NCBI GenBank assembly: GCA_018238625.1
Contig: JABCSY010000095.1
Location: forward strand, 1 to 16,186
Origin: Promethearchaeota archaeon
GTDB taxonomy: Archaea; Asgardarchaeota; Lokiarchaeia; Sigyniarchaeales; SOKP01
Length of the DNA: 16,186 nt
Direction of reading: 5' to 3'
The notes below the pieces were generated by a model. The model worked only from the letters and a program-made list of their open reading frames with translations. It did not search any database and was not told the origin of the DNA. The translations under genes were made by a program, and so were the position numbers. Shown one piece after another: positions 1,888 through 13,235 of the stretch; the first letter of the stretch is position 1; each line of letters begins with the position of its first letter.

Positions 1888-3192
1888 TTAAATAAATGGA
1901 TTCTTATCTCTGAATATTTTTTCTTTATATTTTTTTAACGAAGGAGGACAAAGTTCTTTTTCAGTAGCTTCTTTTTTAATTGTTCTCATAATCTCTGCTA
2001 AATCAACTCCCGCAGGACACCAGTTAGTACAATTTTCGCAGCCTGTACATAAAAATAAACCATCTTTAACAGCAGCTTCGATTCCATTATGAATATAATC
2101 TCGGACGATATTTATTGCTCCAATACCGTATTTTGACGCATAGATATTACCAAATGCGCGAGAAGCTGTGCATACATAATCACAACTTTTACATGCGATA
2201 CATTTTAAAATGTCTTTGTAAAATAGATTTTCTTTTGCTGCTTTAATTCTCCAGTCATCTACAAATATTACCACTACTTCATTCGCACCATACATCCCAA
2301 ATACGCGCTTTCCTTGAATATCAGAAGTATTTGACGCTGCGGATATAAAACTAATGTACGCGCCATCTACATTATTTATTCTCTCATGTATTTTAGCTAC
2401 AATTAGAGCGTCAAAAACATTTGGAACGATTTTTTGTATTCCTACTACAACGATGTGTTTCTCAGTCGCCCTAGTTAAAAGACTAATATTTCCTTCGTTC
2501 TCAATTAGAACGATAGACCCATCATTTGCAGCAATTACATTAGCTGATGTAAGAGAAACCTTAACATCGTTAAGTAATTCGGGACGATAATTCTTCCGGT
2601 AATAGGCTACTATTGCTTCTGCTTTCGCTTCTACATCTATTCCATATTTTTCCTTCATTTTTGCGACGATTTCTTTTTCAGTAAATTGAACTCCAGGAGC
2701 TAAAGTGAAACTTGGATATTTGTAATCAAATAGTTGACATAGAACGTCGCCTAAATCAGTTTCTTTAATTTCTATGTTATTTTTCTTTAAAACATCAACT
2801 ATTCCTATATCCTTTGCCTCCAAAGATTTTGATTTGTATAAAACTTTATTGTCTCCTAACTCTTCCATAAAGATTTTTTGGGCTTCTTCGTTTGTTTTGG
2901 CGTAATAAACCTTAAATTTGTTAGTCTTACGCATCACCTCTATGCATTTTTTTACGTGTTCCTCGATATTTTCAACGAAATCTTCTCGTATTTTAATAAG
3001 ATGTTCTTTGTGTTCTTCAACAAATTCCCTACTAGTATCTTCGTAAAGATATCGCAAATCGAAGGAACGATACTTACCTAAGCTTGCTAACTTCCAAATA
3101 TCTCCAAACTTGCTGTAGACTGAATCTTTATCGTTTAATAGTTCTATCTTTTCTTTCACTTTTTCATATAGCTCTTTTCCTTTTTCGCTCAT
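1888..3192 (-). CDS. LUD-domain + 2x[4Fe-4S] protein (LutB/LldF-like, divergent)
   Basis: Motifs KSKS, ETDLGD, SAN..AA.DG.IV..ENEGN, HIVVVG..KIVP and ferredoxin clusters CIACKSCDYVC and CTGCENCTNWCP. GGAGG RBS on the minus strand at 3203-3207. ATGA 4-nt overlap with the upstream gene. Confidence 0.88.
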   Translation of the reverse strand: MSEKGKELYEKVKEKIELLNDKDSVYSKFGDIWKLASLGKYRSFDLRYLYEDTSREFVEEHKEHLIKIREDFVENIEEHVKKCIEVMRKTNKFKVYYAKTNEEAQKIFMEELGDNKVLYKSKSLEAKDIGIVDVLKKNNIEIKETDLGDVLCQLFDYKYPSFTLAPGVQFTEKEIVAKMKEKYGIDVEAKAEAIVAYYRKNYRPELLNDVKVSLTSANVIAANDGSIVLIENEGNISLLTRATEKHIVVVGIQKIVPNVFDALIVAKIHERINNVDGAYISFISAASNTSDIQGKRVFGMYGANEVVVIFVDDWRIKAAKENLFYKDILKCIACKSCDYVCTASRAFGNIYASKYGIGAINIVRDYIHNGIEAAVKDGLFLCTGCENCTNWCPAGVDLAEIMRTIKKEATEKELCPPSLKKYKEKIFRDKNPFI

Positions 3193-3926
3193 ATCAAGGG
3201 GTCCTCCTGATTCATTATTTTGATTATAAAATCCTCAAATTTAATTACAGGTTTCCTAATATTATTTTCTTTTCGTATTCTTTGTAATGCGGTATAACAA
3301 AATGGACAGGCTGTTAACAAAGCTTTTCCTTTCCTCATTTGATCGAAAATCGATTTAGCGTTATAATCGCTATTTTCTTTAAAAATGGCATAGACACCTC
3401 CGCCAGCCCCACAACAAATACTATTAATTTTTGCATTTTCCATTTCAAATATTTCTATATTATCGATCGAGTTGATAATTGTTCTTGGTTCTTCGATGAT
3501 TGGTGGAATTGCATTTCGTAGATGACAAGCATCGTGATAATTGACAATTAATTTTTTTCCAGAATACTTTAAATTCAACTTCTTTAAATTTTCAGGTGTA
3601 GCCATAAATTGTAAAAGGTGTTTAACTTCGACTTTGAAATCAGAGCCTAAATATTGTTTATAATATCGAGTTAGGTAATTATAACAACCTGCGCAAATCG
3701 TAACAATTTTAGAAACATCATTTGATTTAAACCAATTATTCACAAATTCCACATGTTTCTTTAATTCTTCGTCGTTGGAAATGTGATAAGATAACGCGCC
3801 GCAACAAGGGACATCACCAAGGACTTCGTATTCCTCGTCAAGGAATTTAATGATCTTTATCCCATTTTCGCAAGTTTCTTTATATTTTGAGCTCGATAAA
3901 CACCCTAAATAAATTAATTTTCTCAT
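3189..3926 (-). CDS. Two-CCG-domain Fe-S protein (LutA/LldE, GlcF, HdrB/D-like)
   Basis: Two complete CCG motifs: YLGC...PCCG...TICAGC and YHDACHL...ICCGAGGG...TACPFC. Confidence 0.9.
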   Translation of the reverse strand: MRKLIYLGCLSSSKYKETCENGIKIIKFLDEEYEVLGDVPCCGALSYHISNDEELKKHVEFVNNWFKSNDVSKIVTICAGCYNYLTRYYKQYLGSDFKVEVKHLLQFMATPENLKKLNLKYSGKKLIVNYHDACHLRNAIPPIIEEPRTIINSIDNIEIFEMENAKINSICCGAGGGVYAIFKENSDYNAKSIFDQMRKGKALLTACPFCYTALQRIRKENNIRKPVIKFEDFIIKIMNQEDPLI

Positions 3927-3965
3927 GATTTAATTAACTTTTTAGTTTAAATTAAGATTTGATGT

Positions 3966-4047
3966 TATTTTATTTAAGAATAATTGCAGAAAGACTTAAA
4001 ATAAATTAAATTGAAATTTATAACGATAAAAATATTTAAATAAAATA
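3966..4047. promoter_or_regulatory. Divergent promoter region with mirrored TATA-like 12-mers
   Basis: TATTTTATTTAA (3966-3977) is the exact reverse complement of TTAAATAAAATA (4036-4047). Each copy ends 35-40 nt from its start codon (3926 on minus, 4083 on plus). Confidence 0.5.
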
Positions 4048-4082
4048 TCAGATAAAAACTGAGTTGTTCAAAAATTCCAAAA

Positions 4083-4352
4083 TTGTTAGAGAACAAAGAG
4101 AAGAGTTTTTCATTATTTCTAAATAAAAATAGGTGCGGCGGTTGTCAAGTCTGTGTTTACGTGTGCCCAACAGGCATTTTAGAGATGGGAGACGAATTAA
4201 ACATGAGAATTGCATATATTCCACGAGTTAAAGAGGGAAAAGCAAAATATTGTACAGCGTGTAAGCGATGCGAATATGGATGTCCAGATTGGTGTTTATA
4301 CATTGTAGATAGCTCAAAAAACAATACTATTACCGACAAAGCTAAAGCATAA
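4083..4352 (+). CDS. korD: 2x[4Fe-4S] ferredoxin, delta subunit of 2-oxoacid:ferredoxin oxidoreductase
   Basis: CGGCQVCVYVCP and CTACKRCEYGCP(D) motifs, directly upstream of the alpha subunit. The TTG start is tentative. Confidence 0.88.
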   Translation: MLENKEKSFSLFLNKNRCGGCQVCVYVCPTGILEMGDELNMRIAYIPRVKEGKAKYCTACKRCEYGCPDWCLYIVDSSKNNTITDKAKA

Positions 4353-4366
4353 AAAGGTGAAAAAAA

Positions 4367-5536
4367 ATGGTTATAGAAAATAACAAAAGATTCTTACCAG
4401 AAGGTAAGCATTTGATGATGGGAAATATAGCGATGTCCGAAGGCGCTATAGCTGCTGGTTTGAGGTTTTTTGGTGGCTACCCTATCACGCCAAGTACCGA
4501 GGTTATTGAACACCTTTCTGTTAGGTTACCAGAAATTGGAGGTGTTTGTATGCAAATGGAGGACGAAATAGCATCTATTAATTCTGTAATCGGAGCTTCT
4601 TTAGTCGGCGCTAAGGCTATGACAGCAACTTCTGGTCCTGGTCTTTCTTTAATGACCGAAACTATCTCAATGGCAGCAAATTTAGAAATCCCGTTTGTTT
4701 TTTGTGATGTACAGCGTAATGGTCCTGGGACGGGATATGTAACAGAACCGCATCATAATGACATAGGGTTAATGCGTTTTGCGGGAAATGGTGAATTTCA
4801 AGTTATAACATTAGCACCAATGAGTTGTCAAGAATTATATGATTTAACAATTACGGCATTTAACTTTGCTGAGACATACCGTTGCCCAGTGTTTATTATG
4901 TCAGACGCCTATTTAGGACACCTTCACGAAGTAGTTAATATACCAAAGCAAGAAGATGTGTTAAAGAGAGTAATTGACCGTGAATTACCGGATGATTTTA
5001 CCAAAAAATTTTCTTATAAAGACGAGAACCTCGGGAAATATGTTATCCCTAAACCACCGATTATTGGTACTGATTATTGTCCAGGAATGTTCCTCTCTCA
5101 ACCCCATAATTACGAAGGATTACCGACACCCAAACCACTTAAATTTATAGAGATGATGATCGATAAAATAACTAGCAATATAGATAAAATTTCGCTAACA
5201 AGCACTTATAAATTGGACGATGCCGAAATAGTTATAATTGCTTATGGTCTACCTGTTAGAACCAGTTATCGTGCGGTTGATTTAGCACGGAAAGAAGGAA
5301 TAAAGGTTGGAATTCTCAGACTTATAACAATCTGGCCTTTTCCAGACGGAAAAGTTAAAGAAACCGTTAAGGATGCTAAAGCGGTTATAGTTCCTGAGTT
5401 AAATTACACGGGAGTTATAGCAGAACAAGTCGAACGGGTAACCAAGCTTAATACACCAGTTATTAGACTTCCAAATGCTTGTGAAATTCATCATCCACAC
5501 GACATTTTAAAGGTTATTAAGGAGGTGGCTAATTAA
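4367..5536 (+). CDS. korA: 2-oxoacid:ferredoxin oxidoreductase alpha subunit (KorA/OorA-type)
   Basis: GN.A..EGA..AG, GYPITP, QMEDE, ATSGPG, DVQR.GP.TG and C-terminal GILRL.TIWPFP...VPELN. RBS GGTGA at 4356-4360. The symbol denotes the family; the substrate is uncertain. Confidence 0.93.
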   Translation: MVIENNKRFLPEGKHLMMGNIAMSEGAIAAGLRFFGGYPITPSTEVIEHLSVRLPEIGGVCMQMEDEIASINSVIGASLVGAKAMTATSGPGLSLMTETISMAANLEIPFVFCDVQRNGPGTGYVTEPHHNDIGLMRFAGNGEFQVITLAPMSCQELYDLTITAFNFAETYRCPVFIMSDAYLGHLHEVVNIPKQEDVLKRVIDRELPDDFTKKFSYKDENLGKYVIPKPPIIGTDYCPGMFLSQPHNYEGLPTPKPLKFIEMMIDKITSNIDKISLTSTYKLDDAEIVIIAYGLPVRTSYRAVDLARKEGIKVGILRLITIWPFPDGKVKETVKDAKAVIVPELNYTGVIAEQVERVTKLNTPVIRLPNACEIHHPHDILKVIKEVAN

Positions 5537-6453
5537 TGTCGGGAATAGGACCATTGTTTCCAAACGAGAAACCAGAGAGCCCTTACGTATTAGTCTCTTA
5601 CGCGGGCCATATGTTGGGTAATTATTCGTCTAGGTTTTGTGCTGGGTGCGGTTATGGGATCATAGGGCATATTTTTACCCGAATATTTGAAGATGACAAA
5701 CTAGATCCAAAATTATACCCGTTAGTTCTCGGTATTGGATGCTATAGTCAGATGTTATTACTAGTACATCATGCTACCCAAAAAGTTTTATCGCTTCACG
5801 GTCGTGCACCCTCAGTAGCAACTGGCATGAAAATGGCCAACCCTCAAATGAAACCTATAATATTTACTGGAGATGGCGATTGTTTAGGAATTGGGGGGAA
5901 TCATTTTATCCATACTTGTCGCCGAAATATAGATTGTGTTATATTAATATTTAATAATAGTATTTACGCCATGACAGGTGGCCAAGGTGCACCAACGACC
6001 TTATACGGTGCTAATAGCACGACAACGCCATACAAAATGTTTGAAAATAGAAGCGATGGAGTGAAACTTGCTCTTGCAGCTGGTGCAACTTATGTGGCAC
6101 GAACTACCGTTGCCCATCCTCGGACTTTCATGAAATATTTCAGAAAAGCCTTAAAACATAAAGGCACTTCAGTAATTGAGCTAATTACGCCTTGTGTTAC
6201 CTATTTTGGTAGAAAAAATTTGAGTAGTTTAGGAGCTGAAAATTTAGGAGAAAAAGGAGAAAAAATGGATACAGCGGGTAAGATGATAGAATGGATTAAG
6301 CGAAATAGCGTAAGAAAAAACCAAGCGAAATTCATGAGTGAAGAAGAATTGTTTAATAAATATATTATTGGAGAATTTAGATACGAGCCAGACAAACCGG
6401 AGTACTCAGAAGAATACGCGAAAATACAAAAAATCGCAAGAGGAGGCACATAA
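5536..6453 (+). CDS. korB: 2-oxoacid:ferredoxin oxidoreductase beta subunit (TPP- and [4Fe-4S]-binding)
   Basis: FCAGCG, GIGC, LHGRA, the TPP motif GDGD...GGNHFIH...NN..YAMTGGQ.APTT, and TPCVTY. TAATG 1-nt overlap with the alpha gene; RBS GGAGGTG at 5521-5527. Confidence 0.93.
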   Translation: MSGIGPLFPNEKPESPYVLVSYAGHMLGNYSSRFCAGCGYGIIGHIFTRIFEDDKLDPKLYPLVLGIGCYSQMLLLVHHATQKVLSLHGRAPSVATGMKMANPQMKPIIFTGDGDCLGIGGNHFIHTCRRNIDCVILIFNNSIYAMTGGQGAPTTLYGANSTTTPYKMFENRSDGVKLALAAGATYVARTTVAHPRTFMKYFRKALKHKGTSVIELITPCVTYFGRKNLSSLGAENLGEKGEKMDTAGKMIEWIKRNSVRKNQAKFMSEEELFNKYIIGEFRYEPDKPEYSEEYAKIQKIARGGT

Positions 6454-6456
6454 ACA

Positions 6457-7056
6457 ATGTCTCGATACGAAATTCGAGTAAGTGGGTTTGGCGGTCAAGG
6501 AGTTATCACTCTCAGCAAAATGATAATTATGGCAAGTTCAATCTACGAAGGCCTCGCTGCTACGCAAACAGAAGCTTATTCTGCCGCTGCGCGGGGAGGA
6601 AAATGTTGGGCGGAGGTTGTCGTTGATTTAGATAAAAGTATTGAATATATTGATTACCCGAAAGCTTTAAAGCCGTACGATTTTTTAATAGTTTTATCTC
6701 AAGAATCTGCTAACGACATAAAAGCTAATTTTGTTAAATCTGATGAAAATACGGGGTTTTTAATTTGGGATCCCTCCACGATTAACAAATTTAGAGGGGC
6801 GAAAAAAATTAGTAAAGCCTTGAGCATCCCCGTTCAGAAATTAGCTGTTGAAAAATTTGGTAATATAGTGTTTGGAAATACAATTTTGTTTGCTGTTTTT
6901 ACTATACTTGCAGGGATATTTTCTGAAGAATCTGCGTTAGAAACGATTAAAAAGTTTGTGCCAAGTTCTACATTAGACACAAATATAGAAGCGTTTGAGC
7001 TAGGAAAACAAGAAGCAAAAAAATTTCTTCAAAAATTAAAGGAGGAAGGTAGTTAA
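6457..7056 (+). CDS. korC: 2-oxoacid:ferredoxin oxidoreductase gamma subunit
   Basis: EIRVSGFGGQGV, QT.AYS.AARGG and N..AFELG motifs. RBS GGAGG at 6442-6446. Confidence 0.92.
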   Translation: MSRYEIRVSGFGGQGVITLSKMIIMASSIYEGLAATQTEAYSAAARGGKCWAEVVVDLDKSIEYIDYPKALKPYDFLIVLSQESANDIKANFVKSDENTGFLIWDPSTINKFRGAKKISKALSIPVQKLAVEKFGNIVFGNTILFAVFTILAGIFSEESALETIKKFVPSSTLDTNIEAFELGKQEAKKFLQKLKEEGS

Positions 7057-7057
7057 A

Positions 7058-8875
7058 ATGTATATTGGGAAAACTCAGAAAGGCTGGAAAGAACTATATG
7101 AGGAGATAATTCAAACGGGAAAGTGCGTATACTGTGGAGCTTGTGGGGCGTTTTGTGCTAGCATTCAATTTGATAAAGAAAAAGAAATCCCAATAGAAGA
7201 TGGATCTTGTAAAGACATGAATACTTGTAGAGATGGTTTCGGACTTTGTTATAATCTCTGTCCAAAAACAGAGATTGAGAAGATTCCTCTGTCATTATTA
7301 GATAAATGGGTTTTTGGTAAAGAACACGATAAAATTTTGGGTCACTATATTGAAATAGTTTCTGTAAAATTAACAAATAAAGCACATAAAAAGATCCCAG
7401 CTGAAGCAGGACCTTTAACAGGATTACTATGGGTTGCTATGGAGAATGGTCTCATCGACGCATCGATTATTACTGATAAAGATGAGAACTTCAGACCTTT
7501 TCCAATAATTGCTCAGAATCAACAAGATTTACTTAAAGGAGCTGGGTATAAACCAAGTCAAGGTCCAATTCTTTCGCTTCTAGGCGATGCCATCAATAAG
7601 GAGTATAAAGATATCGCGGTAGTAGGCACTCCATGCCAAATACAAGCTTTGAGAAAATTACAAAACCATCCTGCTTTCGATTACGAAGCTTACGATCTAG
7701 TAACGTTAGCCATTGGAACCTTTTGTTTTGGAACTTATTACAACCAATTATTGAAAATGGCGTTTGAGGAATTTAACATCAACCTGAGCGAGGTTGATAA
7801 AATTGATACTGATAAAGATAATTTTAAAATGAAAGTAAGCATTGATTCAACAGTCAAAGAAATACCCCTTAATTATTTATACGATAAAGCGATTAGAGCC
7901 GCTTGTTTTTCGTGTTCCGATTATACTGCTTCGTTTGCAGATATATCTGTTGGAAAGTTTGGCAGTGAAGACGGATGGAATACTATAATTGTGCGAACTG
8001 GAAGAGGTAAAGAAGTTTTTGAGTTAGCTGTCGAACAAGGTTTCCTCGAAACAAAACCTTTAGAGCACGAAAAGGAGGAATTGATTTTAGACATTACGAG
8101 AAATAAAACCGATATAGTAAAAATTAAATCGATAACGGAGCATGCCCCCGATATCAAAAGTTTTATCGTTAGAAACCCGCGAATTGCGAGAGGCTACAAA
8201 CCCGGGATGTTTGTTGTGTTATGGCTTCCCGACATTGATTTCTTACCAATGTCCATCTCTAGCATTAATGATAATCTTATCGAAATAACAGTTCAAAAAA
8301 TTGGCGAAGGAACGTCAAAATTATTTGAATTTAGAGAAGGAGATTCTATAGGGATTAGAGGTCCTTTTGGAAACTCTTTTAGTTACGAAAACGCAAAAAA
8401 TATCCTAGTAGTTGGGGGAGGAATGGGCGTAGCAGCGTTAACTACATTAATAGAGGATCTAAGACTAAATAAAAAGAATGTATTTGTAGCGATCGGAGCG
8501 AAAGATAAGGCCTCGTTAATATTTGCCGATCGATTAATAGATCTAATTCCAAATACGATGTGTACTACGGAAGACGGGTCTGTAGGTAAGAAATGTGTTG
8601 TAACGGATTCTATTGCAGATATAATTGAAAAAGAAAATATCGATCTAATTATTACATGTGGACCAGAAATCATGATGAAACGGGTTCTCGAAATCGCAGA
8701 TTCTAAAAAAATTGAAATTCAAGCTAGTCTGGAAAGGAAAATGAAATGTGGAGTAGGATTATGTGGTTCTTGTTGTGTAGGAGAAAAGAACGATATTAGC
8801 GTGTGTAAAGATGGGCCTGTCTTTAATTCGACCCAGTTAAAGTCATTTCCTCAATTTGGAAGTTATTCTAAATAA
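7058..8875 (+). CDS. Fusion protein: ferredoxin + FrhB/FdhB (F420-binding family) + PyrK/FNR-like FAD/NAD(P)-binding [2Fe-2S] module
   Basis: aa 1-70: CVYCGACGAFC and C..CYNLCP. aa ~95-350: GLID, IAVVGTPCQ, IGTFC, CFSC.DYTA.FADISVG..GS.DGW.TIIVRT.RG (FrhB). aa ~352-605: KPGMFV.LW, GEGT, RGPFGN, VGGGMG, TEDGS.G, CGPEIMM, SLER.MKCGVGLCGSC, VCKDGPVF (PyrK-type). One uninterrupted frame, starting 1 nt after the gamma stop; RBS GGAGG at 7041-7045. Confidence 0.9.
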   Translation: MYIGKTQKGWKELYEEIIQTGKCVYCGACGAFCASIQFDKEKEIPIEDGSCKDMNTCRDGFGLCYNLCPKTEIEKIPLSLLDKWVFGKEHDKILGHYIEIVSVKLTNKAHKKIPAEAGPLTGLLWVAMENGLIDASIITDKDENFRPFPIIAQNQQDLLKGAGYKPSQGPILSLLGDAINKEYKDIAVVGTPCQIQALRKLQNHPAFDYEAYDLVTLAIGTFCFGTYYNQLLKMAFEEFNINLSEVDKIDTDKDNFKMKVSIDSTVKEIPLNYLYDKAIRAACFSCSDYTASFADISVGKFGSEDGWNTIIVRTGRGKEVFELAVEQGFLETKPLEHEKEELILDITRNKTDIVKIKSITEHAPDIKSFIVRNPRIARGYKPGMFVVLWLPDIDFLPMSISSINDNLIEITVQKIGEGTSKLFEFREGDSIGIRGPFGNSFSYENAKNILVVGGGMGVAALTTLIEDLRLNKKNVFVAIGAKDKASLIFADRLIDLIPNTMCTTEDGSVGKKCVVTDSIADIIEKENIDLIITCGPEIMMKRVLEIADSKKIEIQASLERKMKCGVGLCGSCCVGEKNDISVCKDGPVFNSTQLKSFPQFGSYSK

Positions 8876-8877
8876 TA

Positions 8878-8898
8878 TTTTCTACTTTTCTTTTGTTT
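8878..8898 (+). terminator. T-rich tract after the OFOR/FrhB operon (candidate terminator)
   Basis: TTTTCTACTTTTCTTTTGTTT immediately after the stop at 8875. Confidence 0.4.
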
Positions 8899-8976
8899 AA
8901 ATTGTTAATTACTTAAATTTTAAAAAGAGACTATTTTTTAACTAGTATCAATTAAATCTGAATTTACAAACGATAA

Positions 8977-9957
8977 ATGGAAAATTATAATTTAAAAAAA
9001 GGATTAATCTGTGGCACAATTGGTGTATTGGGGATCTCTCTTCAACCGATTATTGCCAATTCTAGACCATCTGTTATTGATCCTTACATATTTGCTGCAG
9101 TAACAGCTTTAATTATGGCTACAATCTTTTTTCCGTTGTTTGTACTTGAAAGGCACAAATTAAATTCATCTATAGATGTAGATGTAAACTCAAATGAAAA
9201 GTTATATTCCTTGTTAAACGGATGGAAAAAGAAAAACAATTTAAAGTTTCTTGTTATAATAGGAATTACCTTTTCAATCGTCCCTGTGCTATTATATGTG
9301 AGTTTTGAACTTGCAGGGGCAATAAATAGCTCGCTAACTTTAAAAAGTGAAGTTTTTTTCGCTTTATTATTTGGTTACATATTTTTAAAAGAAAAAAGGA
9401 TATCAAAAGTTCAACTTCTATTCTGTGCAACCCTATTCTTCGGAGTATATATCGCAATAACGCAGGGATCTTTTAATTTGCTTGAATTTAATATTGGAGT
9501 CCTAATCTTACTGATAGATGTTGCCTTGTTCACTCTCATCCACACTTTCACTAAATCTAGATTCGATAGAAACGAGCTCTCCCCTATTCAAGTAGTTTTT
9601 ATTCGGAGTCTATTAAGTGGAATAATCTTATTTTCTACATATTTCATTTTTTTTCCTCTAGACAAATTAAATATTGTATTCAATCCTAATTATTTCATAT
9701 ATTATCTGCTGATGGGATTTGATTACAGTGTAAGCTTATTTCTTTGGTATAAAACTTTATCTTATATACAAATAGGAAAAGCTGGCGTATTAAATTCAGT
9801 AACACCAATTATAACAGCTTTATTCTCTTGGATCATTCTGGACGATGTATTCACAACCTTCCATCTAATAGGCATGGTAATTATTATAATTTCAATTTAC
9901 ATGATTGTAAGAGAAAAAAAGTTAAAAAAAAATCTAATACTTGATGAGAAAAAGTAA
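8977..9957 (+). CDS. EamA/DMT-family transporter (paralogue 1)
   Basis: About 10 hydrophobic segments in two repeats. DMT motifs LFGYIFLKEK.I and LWYKTL......A......TPIITALFSWIILDD.FT.FH.IG. Confidence 0.9.
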   Translation: MENYNLKKGLICGTIGVLGISLQPIIANSRPSVIDPYIFAAVTALIMATIFFPLFVLERHKLNSSIDVDVNSNEKLYSLLNGWKKKNNLKFLVIIGITFSIVPVLLYVSFELAGAINSSLTLKSEVFFALLFGYIFLKEKRISKVQLLFCATLFFGVYIAITQGSFNLLEFNIGVLILLIDVALFTLIHTFTKSRFDRNELSPIQVVFIRSLLSGIILFSTYFIFFPLDKLNIVFNPNYFIYYLLMGFDYSVSLFLWYKTLSYIQIGKAGVLNSVTPIITALFSWIILDDVFTTFHLIGMVIIIISIYMIVREKKLKKNLILDEKK

Positions 9958-9958
9958 T

Positions 9959-11119
9959 TTAATCAATATTATGTAAAGGGTAAACGCCTAATTTATTAGC
10001 AGCTTCAATCATCCATTTTAAACGATCAACTGTCATGTTTGGATGAAAGTTGGCTGGAGATATCATAAATCCACCTCCCTTACCCATTGCGTTTATCGCA
10101 TTCGCCACGGCTTGTTCTACTTCCTGTTTAGTTGCATCGACTAAGATATGTTTTGTGTCAATGTTTCCAGATAAGCATATCTTATCTCCAACTTTCTTTT
10201 TAACCAAATAAGGATCAACCCAAGGAGGTTCGAGGCATTGAAGGCCATCAAAACCAGATTCGACAATAAAATCTAATTGAGAAGTAATGTCACCATCTGT
10301 GTGTAGTATATATTTCCCACCCCAATCATGTATAGCTTCTGAAACTTCTTGGTATCGTGGTAAAAGATATTTGTTGAAGTATTTTGGACTCATCATTGGA
10401 CCTCCTTTATGTGCTATGTCCCCTCCTTCAAGAAAAATCTTAGCACCACAATCGGAATAGGCTCTAAAAACTGTCAAGACGAAGTCAGTGCAAAATCGAA
10501 AACGTTCTTCAATTAATTTTGGATCGTTCTTTAAAGCGCGAGCAAAGTTATTCATTCCCATGCCTTGCCATACAGGAGGAAAGACTGATGTTAAAGCATT
10601 TTGAGCTATAATACAAATATCGTCTTTGATATCTTTACACTTTCTTAGGACTCCTTTATAAAATTTTTTAGCAGATTTATATTCCTCTTTCATATCTGGC
10701 TTAGGATATTTTTCCCAATCATCTCGATTTTTAATGTATCCTCCATAGTAATCAGGATAAGGGTTTCCATCAATATCTCTTATTTTATGTCTCTTTCCAA
10801 ATATATCCGTCATCTCTGTTTGACTTTCGAAGATGAATGGTATATATTGTACCCCAACTCCATCAAACCCTATTTCATGCCCCGCTCTAACTGCTTTCGA
10901 AAAGGTTGATATTTCAATATCGACAATGATAGAATTGATTTTATCAGCCCAATCATCTGGATATTGTTTTTCCATATCGGCAAATACATCAAACGCAGTT
11001 CTTTTTGGACGACCTACGATCTTATCAGCAACATTACCATCGATATTTATCGTATGTGTTGGAATTCTATCGGGTTCTTCGAGATTTAAAGCCGCCCATA
11101 TTCGTTCGAAACTATTCAT
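9959..11119 (-). CDS. Uroporphyrinogen decarboxylase / MtaA-CmuA (URO-D superfamily) protein, function unknown
   Basis: MNSFERI.AAL..EEPDRIP N-terminus, GD.A.K.GPMMSP..F....LP, ILHTDG, GFDG, K..VGDKICL.GNID and GGGFM.SP. Lacks the HemE RQAGR motif. Confidence 0.88.
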   Translation of the reverse strand: MNSFERIWAALNLEEPDRIPTHTINIDGNVADKIVGRPKRTAFDVFADMEKQYPDDWADKINSIIVDIEISTFSKAVRAGHEIGFDGVGVQYIPFIFESQTEMTDIFGKRHKIRDIDGNPYPDYYGGYIKNRDDWEKYPKPDMKEEYKSAKKFYKGVLRKCKDIKDDICIIAQNALTSVFPPVWQGMGMNNFARALKNDPKLIEERFRFCTDFVLTVFRAYSDCGAKIFLEGGDIAHKGGPMMSPKYFNKYLLPRYQEVSEAIHDWGGKYILHTDGDITSQLDFIVESGFDGLQCLEPPWVDPYLVKKKVGDKICLSGNIDTKHILVDATKQEVEQAVANAINAMGKGGGFMISPANFHPNMTVDRLKWMIEAANKLGVYPLHNID

Positions 11120-11227
11120 AATTAATATTTCAACAGAGGAATATTTAATAGTATTTTTTCTTTATATCGAGGTTTAGACTTTTTCGGTGTAAAACTTTTT
11201 AATTTTTTATAGCTTTTCTTAAATATC

Positions 11228-12172
11228 TTGAACACCAATTTAAAGAAAGGTTTAATTTTCGGGGTTATTGGGAATATTTTTGTAGGTTTTCAACCAATAA
11301 TTGCTAACAGCGCTCCAGCTGCGCTTGATGCTCATATTTTTGCCGTAATGACCTGTTTAGTAGAAGCAGTAATTTTCTTACCATTAATTCTTATAGAGAA
11401 AAAAGTGAATCTTGCTAAAAATAATAGTGCAAGTACCAATCATAGCAATTCCATGATTAAAAACTGGAGAAAAAATATTTGGCTCTTTATATTTATTGGA
11501 ATAATCTTTGGTCTCAACCAACTTCTATTTTTTGTCGGATATGAATTAGCTGGAGCTATCAATGGGTCTCTTACTCAAAAAACAACAGTCTTTTTTAGTT
11601 TGATTTTTGGATTTCTAATTTTAAAAGAGCGGATAACTAAAGTACAAATAATATTTTCAATGATTTTATTTTTTGGGTTAATCCTTGCTATTTCGCAGGG
11701 ATCATTTAGTCTCTTAATTTTTAGTTTCGATATTTTGAGTGGCGTGTTGATTATTTTATTGATTGCTTGTTTATGGATATTTGGACATTCAATTACCAAG
11801 CCGGTTTTTGCTCGAAATGAAGTTACTCCGACTCAGATGGTTTTTATTAGAAATGTTTTGAGCGGTATTATTTTATTTTCTACTTATTTTCTATTCTTTC
11901 CTTTCAAGAACATTAGCCTATTATTTGTACCGATCAACCAATTCTATTATATCTCAATGGGCGCCGCTTATGGGGCGGGATTATATTGTTGGTATAAAAC
12001 GCTCTCATATTTAGATGTTTCGAAGGCAACAATCCTTTTTTCGCCAACGCCAATTATTACTGCGATATTTGCTACGCTATTTTTAGAAGAACTATTTACA
12101 ATCTTTCATATAATAGGACTTGTTATCATTATCGTATCTATCGTTATAATTGTTAAGCAAAAAGAAAAATAA
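11228..12172 (+). CDS. EamA/DMT-family transporter (paralogue 2)
   Basis: Same architecture as 8977..9957. The TTG start is supported by N-terminal alignment with the paralogue (NLKKGLI.G.IG). No RBS is evident, so it may be leaderless. Confidence 0.9.
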   Translation: MNTNLKKGLIFGVIGNIFVGFQPIIANSAPAALDAHIFAVMTCLVEAVIFLPLILIEKKVNLAKNNSASTNHSNSMIKNWRKNIWLFIFIGIIFGLNQLLFFVGYELAGAINGSLTQKTTVFFSLIFGFLILKERITKVQIIFSMILFFGLILAISQGSFSLLIFSFDILSGVLIILLIACLWIFGHSITKPVFARNEVTPTQMVFIRNVLSGIILFSTYFLFFPFKNISLLFVPINQFYYISMGAAYGAGLYCWYKTLSYLDVSKATILFSPTPIITAIFATLFLEELFTIFHIIGLVIIIVSIVIIVKQKEK

Positions 12173-12427: not shown

Positions 12428-13234
12428 ATGGAAGATAATCTAGCGATCTCTGTTCGAGATTTGAAAAAGTATTTTGGTGAGGTTAAAGCTGTTAATGGTA
12501 TCTCTTTTGACGTCCAAAAAGGAGAGGTTTTTGGTCTTTTAGGCCCAAACGGAGCTGGAAAAACAACAACAATTAAACTTCTTTTAGGACTACTTGAACC
12601 TTTAGAAGGAACTATCAGAGTTTTTGGTTTAAATCCAGAGCGTGAAGAGGTTCAAATGAAAGAGAAAGTAGGTTACGTGTCAGAAGAGCCATTTATATTT
12701 AAATCGCTCACGCCTAAAGATTTGTTTAATTTTATAGCATCTATTCGTAAGTTAGACGCAGAGGAGACCACAGAACGCGTACAAAGGTATTTAGAAAGCC
12801 TAGGCGCTGTGGAGTATTACGAACAATTGATTGCTACATTATCACACGGAAACAAGCAAAAAATGCAAATTATTGCCTCTATACTTCATGAACCAGAGCT
12901 TTTAATTTTAGACGAGCCAATAGCCGGACTTGATGCTAAATCTGTTAGGGTAGTAAAAGAGATCTTAGATATGCATATTGAGAAAGGAGGCTCCGTTCTT
13001 TTTTCTACCCATATCATGGAAATCGCAGAAGATTTGTGCGATCGTATAGCAATAATAAACAGGGGTAAGTTAGTAGGACTTGGAACTATTGACGAGCTTA
13101 GACAACAAGCAGATAAATTGGGTGCGAGTTTGGAAGAGGTTTTTCTTAGATTAACTGAACAAGATTCTTCCGTAGAAGAGATTGTTAAGAAGTTAAGGGC
13201 GTCATATAAGAAAAAAATCAAGGAGACGGCTTAA
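12428..13234 (+). CDS. ABC transporter ATP-binding protein (ABC-2/exporter type)
   Basis: Walker A GPNGAGKT, signature variant LSHGNKQK, Walker B LLILDEP, H-loop FSTH and C-terminal SLEEVFLRLT. Confidence 0.95.
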   Translation: MEDNLAISVRDLKKYFGEVKAVNGISFDVQKGEVFGLLGPNGAGKTTTIKLLLGLLEPLEGTIRVFGLNPEREEVQMKEKVGYVSEEPFIFKSLTPKDLFNFIASIRKLDAEETTERVQRYLESLGAVEYYEQLIATLSHGNKQKMQIIASILHEPELLILDEPIAGLDAKSVRVVKEILDMHIEKGGSVLFSTHIMEIAEDLCDRIAIINRGKLVGLGTIDELRQQADKLGASLEEVFLRLTEQDSSVEEIVKKLRASYKKKIKETA

Positions 13235-13235
13235 A

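What the first reader, a model, noticed from the sequence alone, without database searches (positions are those of the whole stretch)
7058..8875. Single-chain ferredoxin-FrhB-PyrK/FNR fusion: candidate F420/NAD(P)/ferredoxin electron hub coupled to an OFOR
Seen: one frame joins an N-terminal ferredoxin-like Cys region, a full FrhB-family domain with four cluster cysteines (C193, C223, C283, C286) and, from about D352 (nt 8111), a complete PyrK-type FAD/NAD(P) module with a Cys-ligated [2Fe-2S] motif (C564, C569, C572, C583). It is the last gene of the OFOR operon (1-nt gap, own RBS). Known: FrhB/FdhB/FpoF domains are FAD-dependent F420 sites, and PyrK/HydG/AsrB modules are FAD-dependent NAD(P) sites. 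They normally belong to separate complexes, and none of their usual partners (FrhAG, FdhA, PyrD, NfnB) is in the window. Inference: two hydride-exchange flavin sites linked by an Fe-S wire could act as an F420H2:NAD(P)+ transhydrogenase unrelated to Fno, or could route OFOR-derived electrons to F420 and/or NAD(P), possibly by confurcation. I know of no characterised enzyme with this architecture.
Basis: partly seen in the sequence, partly recalled or inferred. Interest (0 to 1): 0.8.

Follow-up and report, generated by a model that had tools for sequence, protein, structure and literature searches.

The report
Oxoacid oxidoreductase with two-flavin fusion subunit
In one order of Asgard archaea, a 2-oxoacid-oxidising enzyme carries an undescribed fifth subunit that fuses an F420-type and an NAD(P)-type flavin module, probably passing its electrons directly to these soluble carriers rather than to free ferredoxin.

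Summary
ORF 7058-8875 encodes a 605-aa protein with three parts: a 2x[4Fe-4S] ferredoxin domain, an FrhB-type domain and a PyrK-type FAD/[2Fe-2S]/NAD(P) domain. All 16 cluster cysteines are invariant in 123 full-length relatives. It is not a misassembly. More than 120 independent 602-621-aa copies exist, and DNA contigs from another study bridge the junction.

The gene directly follows the OFOR gamma gene in 22 of the 22 related loci that hold upstream DNA, down to 37-44% identity. No pyrD lies within the DNA held for any of the 24 fusion loci (up to about 6 kb each side). The genome has its own pyrD-pyrK pair and F420 biosynthesis genes (cofD, cofH, cofE), but no Fno was found.

The N-terminal half is closest to the F420-reductase subunits that make CODH and Fwd reduce F420 in Ca. 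Ethanoperedens (8RIU, 8RJA).

Best reading: a built-in acceptor subunit that routes OFOR electrons to F420 and/or NAD(P). Public records call the gene "PyrK". I found no paper describing it. I rate it a new variant of a known kind.

The parts
3927..4082 (+). AT-rich intergenic region upstream of the operon, divergent from the LutA-like gene; presumed promoter region
   Evidence: Sequence read; ORF map. No promoter was tested, because the archaeal promoter type is not covered by the scan tool.
4083..4352 (+). OFOR delta subunit (89 aa), a 2x[4Fe-4S] ferredoxin with two CxxCxxCxxxCP motifs
   Evidence: Pfam Fer4_7 and related families. NCBIfam OorD at 60 bits, below its cut-off. Both motifs are invariant in 15 orthologues.
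4367..5536 (+). OFOR alpha subunit (389 aa)
   Evidence: Pfam POR_N 196 bits and PFOR_II 75 bits. NCBIfam PRK08659 2-oxoacid:acceptor oxidoreductase alpha at 398 bits, cut-off 411. Best PDB hits are 1yd7_A (3e-77) and 8ys5_A, a 2-oxoglutarate synthase alpha (6e-63).
5536..6453 (+). OFOR beta subunit (305 aa), the TPP-binding subunit
   Evidence: Pfam TPP_enzyme_C 107 bits. Best PDB hit is 8ys5_C, a 2-oxoglutarate:ferredoxin oxidoreductase beta (1e-47).
6457..7056 (+). OFOR gamma subunit (199 aa)
   Evidence: Pfam POR 86 bits. It lies directly upstream of the fusion gene in 22 of 22 loci that hold upstream DNA.
7040..7050 (+). Shine-Dalgarno-like tract AAGGAGGAAGG inside the end of the gamma gene, about 8 nt before ATG 7058
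   Evidence: Sequence read.
7058..8875 (+). Fusion gene (605 aa plus stop), proposed fifth ('epsilon') subunit of the OFOR
   Evidence: AlphaFold2 model has mean pLDDT 90.2 and pTM 0.87.
7058..7327 (+). Residues 1-90: ferredoxin domain with eight invariant Cys (23, 26, 29, 33 / 51, 57, 64, 68-P69), predicted to hold 2x[4Fe-4S]
   Evidence: Aligns with the N-terminal ferredoxin domain of 8riu_B. That domain anchors the subunit to CODH in PMC11493965. Cys conservation. pLDDT dips at residues 91-94, marking the domain boundary.
7328..8092 (+). Residues 91-345: FrhB-type flavo-iron-sulfur domain, with [4Fe-4S] ligands C193, C223, C283, C286 and the ADISVGxxGSxxGWxT signature
   Evidence: Pfam PF04422 and PF04432. 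phmmer hits 8riu_B 4e-56, 8rja_E 5e-47 and FrhB 3zfs_C 6e-41. Foldseek TM (target) 0.83 and rmsd 2.4 A to 8riu_B.
8093..8110 (+). Residues 346-351: short linker between the two halves
   Evidence: pLDDT for block 341-350 is 68; a helix spans 337-348 and a strand starts at 352. T347, R348 and K350 are invariant.
8111..8872 (+). Residues 352-605: PyrK/NfnA-type FAD and NAD(P) binding module with a C-terminal [2Fe-2S] domain
   Evidence: NCBIfam NF000796 at 259 bits, cut-off 224. phmmer hits 4ylf_A 4e-34, 5jca_S 1e-32 and 5ksw_B 1e-23. Foldseek TM (target) 0.82 and rmsd 2.0 A to 5jca_S, and 0.80 to PyrK 5ksw_B. P397-M398-S399, R434-G435-P436, G453-G454-G455-x-G457-x-A459 and C534-G535-P536 are invariant.
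8747..8806 (+). [2Fe-2S] motif C564-x4-C569-x2-C572-x10-C583
   Evidence: Pfam PF10418. All four Cys are 100% conserved. The first ligand is Cys here, where T. maritima NfnA has Asp in the printed alignment.
8876..8905 (+). T-rich tract after the stop codon; likely end of the transcription unit
   Evidence: Sequence read. The next ORF starts at 8977. Not tested further.

Best explanation
The gene encodes a fifth ('epsilon') subunit of a Kor/Oor-type 2-oxoacid:ferredoxin oxidoreductase. It acts as the enzyme's built-in electron acceptor.

Proposed path. Electrons from TPP-dependent oxidative decarboxylation leave through the beta-subunit cluster and the two delta-subunit [4Fe-4S] clusters. They enter the two [4Fe-4S] clusters of the N-terminal ferredoxin domain and pass to the FrhB-domain [4Fe-4S] and its FAD. 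That FAD reduces F420 by hydride transfer. A second exit runs through the C-terminal [2Fe-2S] cluster to the PyrK-type FAD, which reduces NAD(P)+.

Net reaction: 2-oxoacid + CoA + F420 (or NAD(P)+) -> acyl-CoA + CO2 + F420H2 (or NAD(P)H). This makes the oxidation effectively irreversible. Because both hydride sites share one Fe-S wire, the subunit could also equilibrate F420H2 with NAD(P)H in a genome where no Fno was found.

Shown: domain composition, intact and invariant cofactor ligands, a compact high-confidence fold, strict operon linkage to the OFOR, F420 biosynthesis genes, and a separate genuine pyrD-pyrK pair.

Inferred: binding to the OFOR, F420 and NAD(P) reactivity, the order of the redox centres, and the 2-oxoacid used. 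2-Oxoglutarate type is a guess from best hits only.
For: 1. Architecture and cofactor sites. Pfam, NCBIfam, PDB sequence and fold matches place the three modules. All 16 cluster cysteines and the flavin/nicotinamide motifs are invariant in 123 relatives; 156 of 605 positions are invariant.

2. Closest solved relatives of residues 13-351. These are the zeta subunit of the F420-reducing CODH (8riu_B, E 4e-56, TM 0.83) and FwdI of the F420-reducing Fwd (8rja_E). Both have the same ferredoxin-domain-plus-F420-reductase layout, are anchored by the N-terminal domain, and were shown to make their enzymes reduce F420 (PMC11493965, passages).

3. Operon linkage. Gene spacing is 14, -1, 3 and 1 nt, with an RBS and a T-rich end. 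The gamma gene is directly upstream in 18 of 20 genome-contig loci. Of the other two, one contig starts inside the gene and one holds a truncated remnant. The same order holds in 4 of 4 more distant loci at 37-53% identity.

4. Not the pyrimidine PyrK. No pyrD lies in any of the 24 fusion loci or in the window. The genome's own pyrD and pyrK overlap on contig C121. By contrast, 48 of the 60 closest stand-alone homologues of the C-terminal half lie within 1.3 kb of a pyrD, 43 of them within 300 nt.

5. F420 is available. cofD scores 319 bits (cut-off 257), cofH 466 (374) and cofE 269 (181). Within the order, 81 of 86 fusion-bearing genomes have a cofD match. The family without the fusion (0 of 14) mostly lacks cofD (2 of 14). 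Related genomes are not independent, so this is consistency only.

6. No Fno. The best TIGR01915 match is 29 bits against a cut-off of 150, in a genome 97.9% complete.

7. Precedent for OFOR-FrhB linkage. ANME-1 FrhB6 clusters with PFOR (PMC9012536, section 31). One metagenome contig, L112, has OFOR alpha-beta followed by a 371-aa FrhB gene.

8. Compact fold. pTM 0.87 for a two-half protein argues that the halves pack in a defined way (inference).
Against: No biochemical data exist for any member, and no cultured organism was identified as carrying it. Contact with the OFOR is inferred from gene order alone.

F420 binding cannot be read from sequence. The FrhB family also includes members that act on other substrates, such as HCAR (5dqr, which appears). 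The NCBIfam FrhB and FpoF equivalogs are far below their cut-offs (179 vs 331.5; 113 vs 475), so this is a divergent paralogue.

Why one enzyme needs two hydride exits is unexplained by a simple linear model. Dumping about -500 mV electrons onto -340/-320 mV carriers wastes energy, which is odd for energy-limited sediment archaea.

The fusion is patchy even within the genus: 33 of 42 genomes have it. Among those without it are genomes rated 91-99% complete. It is therefore dispensable or replaceable.

Transcription is supported only by contigs of relatives in RNA libraries, which is a weak hint.
Confidence: 0.55

Rival explanations
1. Nfn-like flavin-based electron confurcation or bifurcation. 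The FrhB FAD (F420 site) sits at a junction between a low-potential [4Fe-4S] path to the OFOR and a higher-potential [2Fe-2S]/FAD path to NAD(P). The proposed reaction is 2-oxoacid + CoA + NAD(P)H + 2 F420 -> acyl-CoA + CO2 + NAD(P)+ + 2 F420H2. In reverse, F420H2 would drive reductive carboxylation.
For: The inventory of redox centres matches NfnAB: 2x[4Fe-4S], then a hydride-site FAD, then [2Fe-2S], then a second FAD with an NAD site. My knowledge of the Nfn layout is recalled; entries 4ylf and 5jca appear with their titles.

The best PDB sequence matches of the C-terminal half are Nfn small subunits (4ylf_A at 122 bits, 5jca_S at 117 bits), ahead of PyrK (87 bits).

The same genome repeatedly pairs FrhB with bifurcation-type modules. 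Contig C162 has an NfnA-like gene followed by a 914-aa Fd-FrhB-NfnB/GltD fusion. Contigs C138 and C144 have FrhB next to HdrA and MvhD.

This reading explains why two hydride sites are kept, and it avoids wasting the low potential of the 2-oxoacid. F420 is about -340 mV and the pyruvate couple about -500 mV (PMC9012536, section 31); NAD at -320 mV is recalled.
Against: No FrhB-family flavin has been shown to bifurcate, to my knowledge. The [2Fe-2S] has four Cys ligands as in PyrK and HydG, not the Asp-containing site seen for T. maritima NfnA. PyrK-like subunits also pass electrons to plain Fe-S partners, as in HydG-HydB and AsrB-AsrA (recalled).
Confidence: 0.2
2. A self-contained F420H2:NAD(P)+ oxidoreductase that stands in for Fno. 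It is co-transcribed with the OFOR only for regulatory or metabolic reasons and is not physically part of the enzyme. The layout parallels Fsr, where an FrhB half feeds a fused C-terminal module.
For: No Fno was found. Fsr shows that an Fd-FrhB half fused to a C-terminal acceptor module works as one polypeptide (7np8 and 7npa appear; PMC11237513 passages). The fusion holds everything needed for F420H2-to-NAD(P)+ transfer.
Against: Gamma-fusion adjacency is strict, with 1-5 nt gaps, in 22 of 22 testable loci across 37-95% identity. That is more than loose co-regulation usually gives. The N-terminal ferredoxin domain is the best-conserved part (mean 0.81 against 0.72-0.76 for the rest). In the closest solved relatives it is the docking domain.
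Confidence: 0.12
3. An OFOR:NAD(P)+ oxidoreductase in which the FrhB domain does not use F420. Its FAD and cluster would serve only as a relay or a one-electron/two-electron switch, or would act on another substrate.
For: The FrhB family includes non-F420 members such as HCAR (5dqr). The FrhB and FpoF equivalog scores are well below their cut-offs. Five-subunit NAD+-reducing OFORs exist, for example phenylglyoxylate dehydrogenase PadEFGHI. The NCBIfam models were seen; the biochemistry is recalled.
Against: The closest relatives by sequence and fold are proven F420 reductases (PMC11493965). F420 biosynthesis genes are present and track the lineages that carry the fusion. A whole FAD domain is an expensive relay.
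Confidence: 0.1
4. The database annotation is right: the protein is the electron-transfer subunit (PyrK) of dihydroorotate dehydrogenase B.
For: NCBIfam PyrK equivalog NF000796 scores above its cut-off on residues 351-604. NCBI and JGI name the homologues this way. The closest stand-alone relatives of the C-terminal half are genuine pyrD neighbours.
Against: No pyrD lies in any of the 24 fusion loci. The genome has a separate, overlapping pyrD-pyrK pair. The model covers only 42% of the protein. The fusion is always inside an OFOR operon.
Confidence: 0.02

Closest known systems
[quoted passage not shown] Ethanoperedens thermophilum (PDB 8RIU chain B, 8RJA chain E; PMC11493965)
   Same: An N-terminal 2x[4Fe-4S] ferredoxin domain followed by an FrhB-type [4Fe-4S]+FAD domain. 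These are the best sequence matches (E 4e-56 and 5e-47) and the best fold matches (TM 0.83 and 0.80). Each is encoded alongside a ferredoxin-level CO2-releasing enzyme, which it makes reduce F420.
   Different: The partner enzyme here is a 2-oxoacid oxidoreductase, not CODH or Fwd. In place of the short C-terminal dimerisation extension of zeta (residues 350-370), this protein carries a complete 255-aa PyrK-type FAD/[2Fe-2S]/NAD(P) module. Identity is only 29-32%. Activity is untested.
PyrK, electron-transfer subunit of class 1B dihydroorotate dehydrogenase (PDB 1EP3, 5KSW)
   Same: The C-terminal 255 residues score above the NCBIfam PyrK equivalog cut-off. They keep the four-Cys [2Fe-2S] site and match the fold (TM 0.80). 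The nearest stand-alone homologues are real pyrD neighbours.
   Different: It is fused behind an FrhB half, is never next to pyrD, and coexists with a genuine pyrD-pyrK pair. It is a recruited copy, not the pyrimidine-pathway subunit.
[quoted passage not shown]
   Same: The small subunit is the best PDB sequence match for the C-terminal half. The overall set of centres is parallel: two [4Fe-4S], a hydride-site FAD, a [2Fe-2S] and a second FAD.
   Different: The large-subunit role is played by an unrelated FrhB fold rather than a GltD-type fold. The hydride carrier would be F420 rather than NADPH. The [2Fe-2S] has all-Cys ligation. Bifurcation is not shown.
Fsr, F420-dependent sulfite reductase (PDB 7NP8, 7NPA)
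   Same: A single polypeptide of about 620 aa with an Fd-FrhB N-terminal half fused to a C-terminal redox module (PMC11237513 passages).
   Different: The C-terminal module of Fsr is a siroheme sulfite reductase. Here it is an NAD(P)-type flavoprotein. Fsr is not part of an OFOR operon.
FrhB6-PFOR gene clusters of ANME-1 (PMC9012536, section 31) and the alpha-beta-FrhB cluster on metagenome contig L112
   Same: An FrhB paralogue is encoded directly with a 2-oxoacid:ferredoxin oxidoreductase, and the authors proposed that it gives F420-reducing 2-oxoacid oxidation. L112 shows the same gene order.
   Different: Those FrhB genes are stand-alone (about 370 aa) and have no PyrK module. The OFORs are Por-like. 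The lineages are Halobacteriota or unknown, not Asgard. They too are uncharacterised.
Five-subunit NAD+-reducing phenylglyoxylate dehydrogenase PadEFGHI (NCBIfam NF045762-NF045766; biochemistry recalled, not read here)
   Same: A four-subunit-type OFOR plus a fifth flavoprotein subunit that passes electrons to a pyridine nucleotide.
   Different: The fifth subunits are not homologous. The PadH model NF045765 gives no match on this contig and is not among the families listed for P0001. There is no F420-type module.
Fno (F420H2:NADP+ oxidoreductase, TIGR01915)
   Same: A possible shared net reaction, F420H2 <-> NAD(P)H.
   Different: A completely different fold and mechanism: direct hydride transfer with no flavin or Fe-S centres. 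Fno was not found in this genome.

Membership tests
FrhB/FdhB/FpoF family (Pfam PF04422 + PF04432) | Both Pfam domains above their gathering scores | tested here: met
   PF04422 at 38.2 bits (cut-off 22) and PF04432 at 136.2 bits (cut-off 23.3).
FrhB/FdhB/FpoF family (Pfam PF04422 + PF04432) | Four Cys ligands of the [4Fe-4S] cluster next to the flavin | tested here: met
   C193, C223, C283 and C286 align with Cys in 8riu_B, 8rja_E and 9r51_B. They are 100% conserved in 123 relatives.
FrhB/FdhB/FpoF family (Pfam PF04422 + PF04432) | FrhB fold | tested here: met
   Foldseek TM (target) 0.77-0.83 to 8riu_B, 9r51_B, 4ci0_C and 6qgr_B, from a model with pLDDT 90.
FrhB/FdhB/FpoF family (Pfam PF04422 + PF04432) | Binds FAD and exchanges a hydride with F420 | not testable with these tools
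   Indirect evidence only: the closest relatives are proven F420 reductases, and the genome encodes cofD, cofH and cofE.
FrhB proper (subunit of F420-reducing hydrogenase) and FpoF | NCBIfam equivalog score above cut-off | tested here: not met
   TIGR03289 at 179 bits against 331.5; NF040616 FpoF at 113 against 475; NF006808 at 109 against 444. It is a paralogue, not FrhB or FpoF itself.
F420-reductase subunits of ferredoxin-level enzymes (CODH zeta, FwdI) | N-terminal 2x[4Fe-4S] ferredoxin domain joined to an FrhB domain | tested here: met
   Eight invariant Cys in residues 23-68. The alignment to 8riu_B covers residues 13-351. Domain limits in zeta are 1-83 and 84-349.
F420-reductase subunits of ferredoxin-level enzymes (CODH zeta, FwdI) | Encoded with, and bound to, the low-potential partner enzyme | tested here: inconclusive
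   Gene linkage to the OFOR is strict: 22 of 22 testable loci. Physical binding is not established.
PyrK (DHODH 1B electron-transfer subunit) | NCBIfam equivalog above cut-off, with a four-Cys [2Fe-2S] site | tested here: met
   NF000796 at 259.1 bits against 224 on residues 351-604. C564, C569, C572 and C583 are invariant.
PyrK (DHODH 1B electron-transfer subunit) | Partnered with (encoded next to) PyrD | tested here: not met
   No pyrD in any of 24 fusion loci or in the window. The genome has its own pyrD-pyrK pair on C121. Stand-alone homologues have pyrD within 1.3 kb in 48 of 60 cases.
NfnA (small subunit of NfnAB) | Partner NfnB/GltD-type subunit adjacent; Asp-containing [2Fe-2S] site as printed for T. 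maritima NfnA | tested here: not met
   The window has no GltD-type gene. The first ligand is Cys here, where 4ylf_A has Asp.
2-oxoacid:ferredoxin oxidoreductase, four-subunit type (the operon) | Alpha (POR_N + PFOR_II), beta (TPP_enzyme_C), gamma (POR) and delta (2x[4Fe-4S]) subunits | tested here: met
   Pfam. Best solved relatives are Kor/Oor-type enzymes. Substrate specificity was not determined; all NCBIfam equivalogs are below their cut-offs.
PadH (epsilon subunit of NADH-dependent phenylglyoxylate dehydrogenase) | Match to NCBIfam NF045765 | tested here: not met
   No match on contig C65, and the family is not among those listed for P0001.

The most novel reading that the evidence does not exclude
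The fusion turns the OFOR into an F420-based analogue of Nfn. The FrhB FAD would be a bifurcating or confurcating flavin at the junction of a low-potential [4Fe-4S] wire to the TPP site and a [2Fe-2S]/FAD branch to NAD(P). In this scheme, one 2-oxoacid plus one NAD(P)H reduce two F420. Run backwards, F420H2 would power reductive carboxylation without free ferredoxin. That would be the first bifurcating FrhB-family flavin and the first OFOR with an integrated bifurcation module, in the archaeal lineage closest to eukaryotes.
Probability: 0.17. Interest if true: 0.9.

Novelty: new variant of a known kind. Interest (0 to 1): 0.66.

Why it matters
Asgard archaea of this order are thought to live by fermenting amino acids and other organics, with 2-oxoacid oxidation as a central step. 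How they balance ferredoxin, NAD(P)H and F420 is largely guesswork. This is a conserved, highly constrained subunit: 156 of 605 residues are invariant. It wires an OFOR to two soluble hydride carriers, so it would change the predicted electron budget of these organisms. It would also extend the recently proven principle that an FrhB module converts a ferredoxin enzyme into an F420 enzyme to the 2-oxoacid oxidoreductases. If the Nfn-like reading holds, it would add a new class of flavin-based electron bifurcation.

There is also a practical point. Every one of the public names seen for this gene calls it 'dihydroorotate dehydrogenase electron transfer subunit'. That name misleads metabolic reconstructions.

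Tried and rejected
1. Docking test. I submitted alpha + beta + delta + residues 1-95 of the fusion, each as an alignment. The score was 0.00 and the verdict was 'no answer'. This is no evidence for or against binding.

2. Internal wiring. The AlphaFold2 model is confident, but its coordinates are not exposed in /data. I therefore could not measure distances between the [2Fe-2S] site, the FrhB flavin site and the ferredoxin-domain clusters. The linear-versus-junction question stays open.

4. Literature. 'PyrK' + 'FrhB' returned 0 papers. 'FrhB' + 'Asgard' returned 16 papers, 13 listed. 'Lokiarchae' + 'F420' + 'FrhB' returned 3 papers. 'Asgard' + 'F420' + '2-oxoglutarate' + 'ferredoxin oxidoreductase' returned 11 papers. 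In the passages I read (PMC11237513, PMC10667645, PMC10116835), none describes this fusion. I did not open supplementary tables of Asgard genome papers, and they may list the gene. The phenylglyoxylate/PadH search returned nothing useful, so the Pad biochemistry is recalled.

5. Expression. RNA-library runs hold only contigs of 93-94% identical relatives. One is a 14-kb contig that may be DNA carry-over. This is not enough to claim transcription. Run X2 has no cover beyond about 7600, which is not meaningful.

6. ESM Atlas. The best hit scored 0.77 (AsrA-AsrB-type fusions), below the useful range. It says only that no large cluster shares the architecture.

7. Closest stand-alone FrhB homologue, P0128 (43% identity). 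Its metagenome loci L107-L111 show no OFOR nearby, so it is not a split form of this operon.

8. NAD versus NADP preference and the identity of the 2-oxoacid. I considered both, but neither can be decided from sequence here.

9. Mer (TIGR03555) was not found, so the downstream users of F420H2 in this genome remain unclear.

Full report
**What is there**

The window is contig C65 of a 4.29-Mb, 32% G+C genome of 201 contigs, rated 97.9% complete and 7.6% contaminated. The same gene order occurs at up to 94% protein identity in assemblies that carry Promethearchaeota / Lokiarchaeota-type names.

ORF 7058-8875 (+) encodes 605 residues. It is the last of five tightly spaced genes:

| Gene | Coordinates | Evidence |
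|---|---|---|
| delta | 4083-4352 | 2x[4Fe-4S] |
| alpha | 4367-5536 | POR_N + PFOR_II |
| beta | 5536-6453 | TPP_enzyme_C |
| gamma | 6457-7056 | POR |
| fusion | 7058-8875 | see below |

The gaps between genes are 14, -1, 3 and 1 nt. A GGAGG-type ribosome-binding site lies inside the end of gamma, and a T-rich tract follows the last stop codon.

**The three modules of the fusion protein**

- **Residues 1-90** carry eight cysteines in two ferredoxin-type motifs.
- **Residues 91-345** are an FrhB-type domain. PF04422 and PF04432 both score above threshold. The four cluster cysteines align with those of solved FrhB-like chains.
- **Residues 352-605** are a PyrK/NfnA-type module with a four-Cys [2Fe-2S] site. 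NCBIfam NF000796 scores 259 bits against a cut-off of 224. The best PDB hits are 4ylf_A (4e-34), 5jca_S (1e-32) and 5ksw_B (1e-23).

An AlphaFold2 model built from a 106-row alignment has mean pLDDT 90.2 and pTM 0.87. Its N-terminal half superposes on 8riu_B (TM 0.83, rmsd 2.4 A). Its C-terminal half superposes on 5jca_S (TM 0.82, rmsd 2.0 A) and on PyrK 5ksw_B (TM 0.80).

In 123 full-length relatives, all 16 cluster cysteines are invariant. So are the flavin and nicotinamide signatures PMS, RGP, GGGxGxA and CGP; I name these motifs from memory. Altogether 156 of 605 positions are invariant.

**It is real, conserved and narrowly distributed**

A word-indexed search returned 311 hits. All 120 listed are 602-621 aa with 99-100% coverage and 71-95% identity. 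An exhaustive scan of representatives clustered at 50% identity found only two full-length clusters with this architecture, P0122 (70% identical) and P0124 (44%). Everything else was fragments or single-module proteins of about 260-280 or about 330-400 aa.

I scanned 400 genomes of the phylum and read the table with best E <= 1e-100 as the criterion:

| Group | Genomes with the fusion |
|---|---|
| The window's family, f1 | 81 of 135 (one of these, G252, is a C-terminal remnant) |
| The window's genus, within f1 | 33 of 42 |
| Second family of the order, f4 | 4 of 4 (one cut by a contig end) |
| Third family, f2 | the single genome (in two pieces, at a contig end) |
| Fourth family, f3 | 0 of 14 |
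| The other 246 genomes | none |

In the other 246 genomes, the best matches cover one half only.

DNA contigs from a different study bridge the domain junction, spanning 7177-8055 and 8026-8353. Misassembly is excluded.

**Context decides against PyrK and for the OFOR**

The gamma gene lies directly upstream of the fusion in 18 of 20 genome-contig loci. Of the other two, one contig starts inside the gene and one is a truncated remnant. The same holds in 4 of 4 additional distant loci at 37-53% identity. In all of these the full delta-alpha-beta-gamma-fusion order is kept.

No pyrD lies within the DNA held for any of the 24 loci (up to about 6 kb each side), or in the window. The genome has a normal, overlapping pyrD-pyrK pair on contig C121.

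By contrast, among the 60 closest stand-alone homologues of the C-terminal half (39-47% identity), 43 have a pyrD within 300 nt and 5 more have one within 1.3 kb. The module was therefore recruited from PyrK but no longer serves dihydroorotate dehydrogenase. Every one of the public names seen for the protein, 'dihydroorotate dehydrogenase electron transfer subunit', is a misannotation driven by the C-terminal 42% of the protein.

**What the N-terminal half resembles**

The best solved relatives come from Ca. Ethanoperedens thermophilum. [quoted passage not shown]

The paper (PMC11493965; passages read) describes zeta as a ferredoxin domain (1-83, two [4Fe-4S]) plus an F420-reductase domain (84-349, one [4Fe-4S] and FAD). 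It is anchored to the enzyme through the N-terminal domain. The paper shows that both enzymes reduce F420. P0001 aligns to zeta over residues 13-351.

Chadwick et al. (PMC9012536; section 31 read whole) noted that an ANME-1 paralogue, FrhB6, is clustered with pyruvate:ferredoxin oxidoreductase. They proposed F420-reducing 2-oxoacid oxidation. I found one further example of this simpler arrangement: contig L112, with OFOR alpha, OFOR beta and a 371-aa FrhB gene.

**Is F420 available?**

Yes. cofD, cofH and cofE all score above their curated cut-offs; cofC and cofG were not tested separately. Across the order, 81 of 86 fusion-bearing genomes have a cofD match. The family without the fusion mostly lacks cofD (2 of 14). 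Related genomes are not independent, so this is consistency, not proof.

Fno was not found: the best match is 29 bits against a cut-off of 150. Mer was not found either.

The genome holds nine FrhB paralogues and three other PyrK-like genes. Several sit in clusters typical of electron bifurcation:

- C138: MvhD-HdrA-MvhD-Fer4-Fer4_22-PyrK-like-FrhB.
- C144: FrhB, a CCG protein, HdrA and MvhD.
- C162: an NfnA-like gene followed by a 914-aa Fd-FrhB-NfnB/GltD fusion.

**Most likely mechanism (confidence about 0.55)**

The protein is a fifth, acceptor subunit of a Kor/Oor-type OFOR. For the alpha and beta subunits, Kor/Oor-type enzymes rank above Por-type ones among the solved hits; the top alpha hit, 1yd7_A, is a 2-keto acid:ferredoxin oxidoreductase alpha of unstated specificity. 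The substrate itself is not determined.

Electrons from the TPP site would run through beta and delta into the ferredoxin domain. They would then pass to the FrhB cluster and FAD, and from there to F420. A second exit would run through the [2Fe-2S] and the PyrK FAD to NAD(P)+. With both hydride sites on one wire, the subunit could also interconvert F420H2 and NAD(P)H.

Shown are the parts list, its conservation, the operon linkage and the metabolic setting. The docking, both substrate specificities and the order of the centres are inferred.

**Rivals**

- **Nfn-like confurcation or bifurcation (0.2).** The FrhB FAD would be the junction. This reading fits the cofactor inventory, the Nfn-like affinities of the C-terminal half, the genomic habit of pairing FrhB with bifurcating modules, and the energetic oddity of a plain two-exit enzyme. 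It has no direct support. The decisive distances could not be measured because the model's coordinates are not exposed.
- **Free-standing F420H2:NAD(P)+ oxidoreductase, merely co-transcribed (0.12).** Strict adjacency and the very well conserved docking-type domain argue against it.
- **OFOR:NAD(P)+ enzyme whose FrhB domain does not use F420 (0.1).**
- **Genuine PyrK (0.02).** Contradicted by synteny.

**Comparison with known systems, and novelty**

FrhB modules attached to ferredoxin-level enzymes are known for CODH and Fwd. FrhB halves fused to a catalytic module are known from Fsr. A five-subunit OFOR that reduces NAD+ is known in the Pad system. Its epsilon subunit, PadH, is not homologous: the NF045765 model gives no match here.

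What I could not find anywhere is an FrhB module fused to a PyrK module, or an OFOR carrying both. No PDB chain covers both halves. No paper in the library holds both terms. In the Asgard or FrhB papers whose passages I read, nothing describes it; supplementary tables were not examined.

I file it as a new variant of a known kind, with real interest for anaerobic bioenergetics and for models of Asgard metabolism.

**Limits**

There is no biochemistry. The docking job gave no verdict. The expression evidence is only suggestive. The distribution is patchy even within the genus, so the subunit is not essential to the lineage.

Noticed in passing
window 1888-3926 (- strand): LutB-like (LUD domain + 4Fe-4S, 434 aa) and LutA-like (CCG domain, 245 aa) genes are transcribed divergently from the OFOR operon. 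Both are found upstream of the operon in 7 of 20 related loci; in one of these (L025) they lie on the same strand as the operon. This may be a lactate or hydroxyacid-oxidising partner feeding the 2-oxoacid enzyme.
   Followed up: partly
G000 contig C162:4639-8254 (locus L013): An NfnA-like gene (294 aa) is followed by a 914-aa fusion of a ferredoxin domain, FrhB and an NfnB/GltD-type domain (Fer4_20 + Pyr_redox_2). It sits beside a protein with an Mpt_N (methylene-H4MPT dehydrogenase N-terminal) domain. A representative of the same architecture exists elsewhere (P0265, 906 aa). This is a possible F420-linked Nfn.
   Followed up: partly
G000 contig C138:7330-15682 (locus L012) and C144:3477-9422 (locus L103): Two HdrA-centred clusters end in FrhB paralogues. 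The first is MvhD, HdrA (1004 aa), MvhD, Fer4, Fer4_22, PyrK-like, FrhB. The second is FrhB, a CCG protein, HdrA (1031 aa), MvhD. FrhB next to PyrK-like genes therefore recurs in split form.
   Followed up: partly
L024:3036-5535, L030:4809-5537; RNA-library contig in run X15 at window 6434-6604: In some relatives, extra DNA lies between the beta and gamma genes, and the gamma match starts only at residue 46. The inserts are about 2.5 kb with a 679-aa ORF carrying weak Ig-like domain hits (L024), about 0.7 kb with no ORF (L030), and 1792 letters replacing 169 (X15 contig). The nature of the insert is unknown.
   Followed up: partly
L036:5832-6561 (and G252): A close relative (89-90% identity) keeps only residues 417/419-605 of the fusion, directly abutting a LutB fragment. 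This looks like a deletion that removed the OFOR genes and most of the fusion, or an assembly chimera.
   Followed up: no
L035:1-4472: In this 65%-identical locus, beta, gamma and the fusion are present, but no alpha or delta match was found in the 4.4 kb upstream.
   Followed up: no
window 8977-12172: Two EamA-family transporter genes flank a URO-D-family gene on the opposite strand. URO-D is the family that also holds methylcobamide methyltransferases. The URO-D gene is found downstream of the fusion in 10 of 20 related loci.
   Followed up: no
window 12428-15875: An ABC ATPase (268 aa) is followed by an 879-aa membrane protein that combines a 12-TM region with an Rce1-like CAAX protease domain.
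   Followed up: no
L112:3767-7032 (metagenome contig): A three-gene cluster of OFOR alpha, OFOR beta and a stand-alone 371-aa FrhB paralogue, with no delta, gamma or PyrK. This is the simpler form of OFOR-FrhB linkage.
   Followed up: partly
Order-level scan: One family of the order (f3) lacks both the fusion (0 of 14) and, mostly, cofD (2 of 14). The other families have both. F420 use may have been lost in that family.
   Followed up: partly
G000 C121:13521-14996 and C109:28667-30901: A 491-aa TIR-domain protein lies next to the genuine pyrK. A Ras-family small GTPase and a Roadblock/LC7 protein flank a degenerate FrhB paralogue (317 aa).
   Followed up: no
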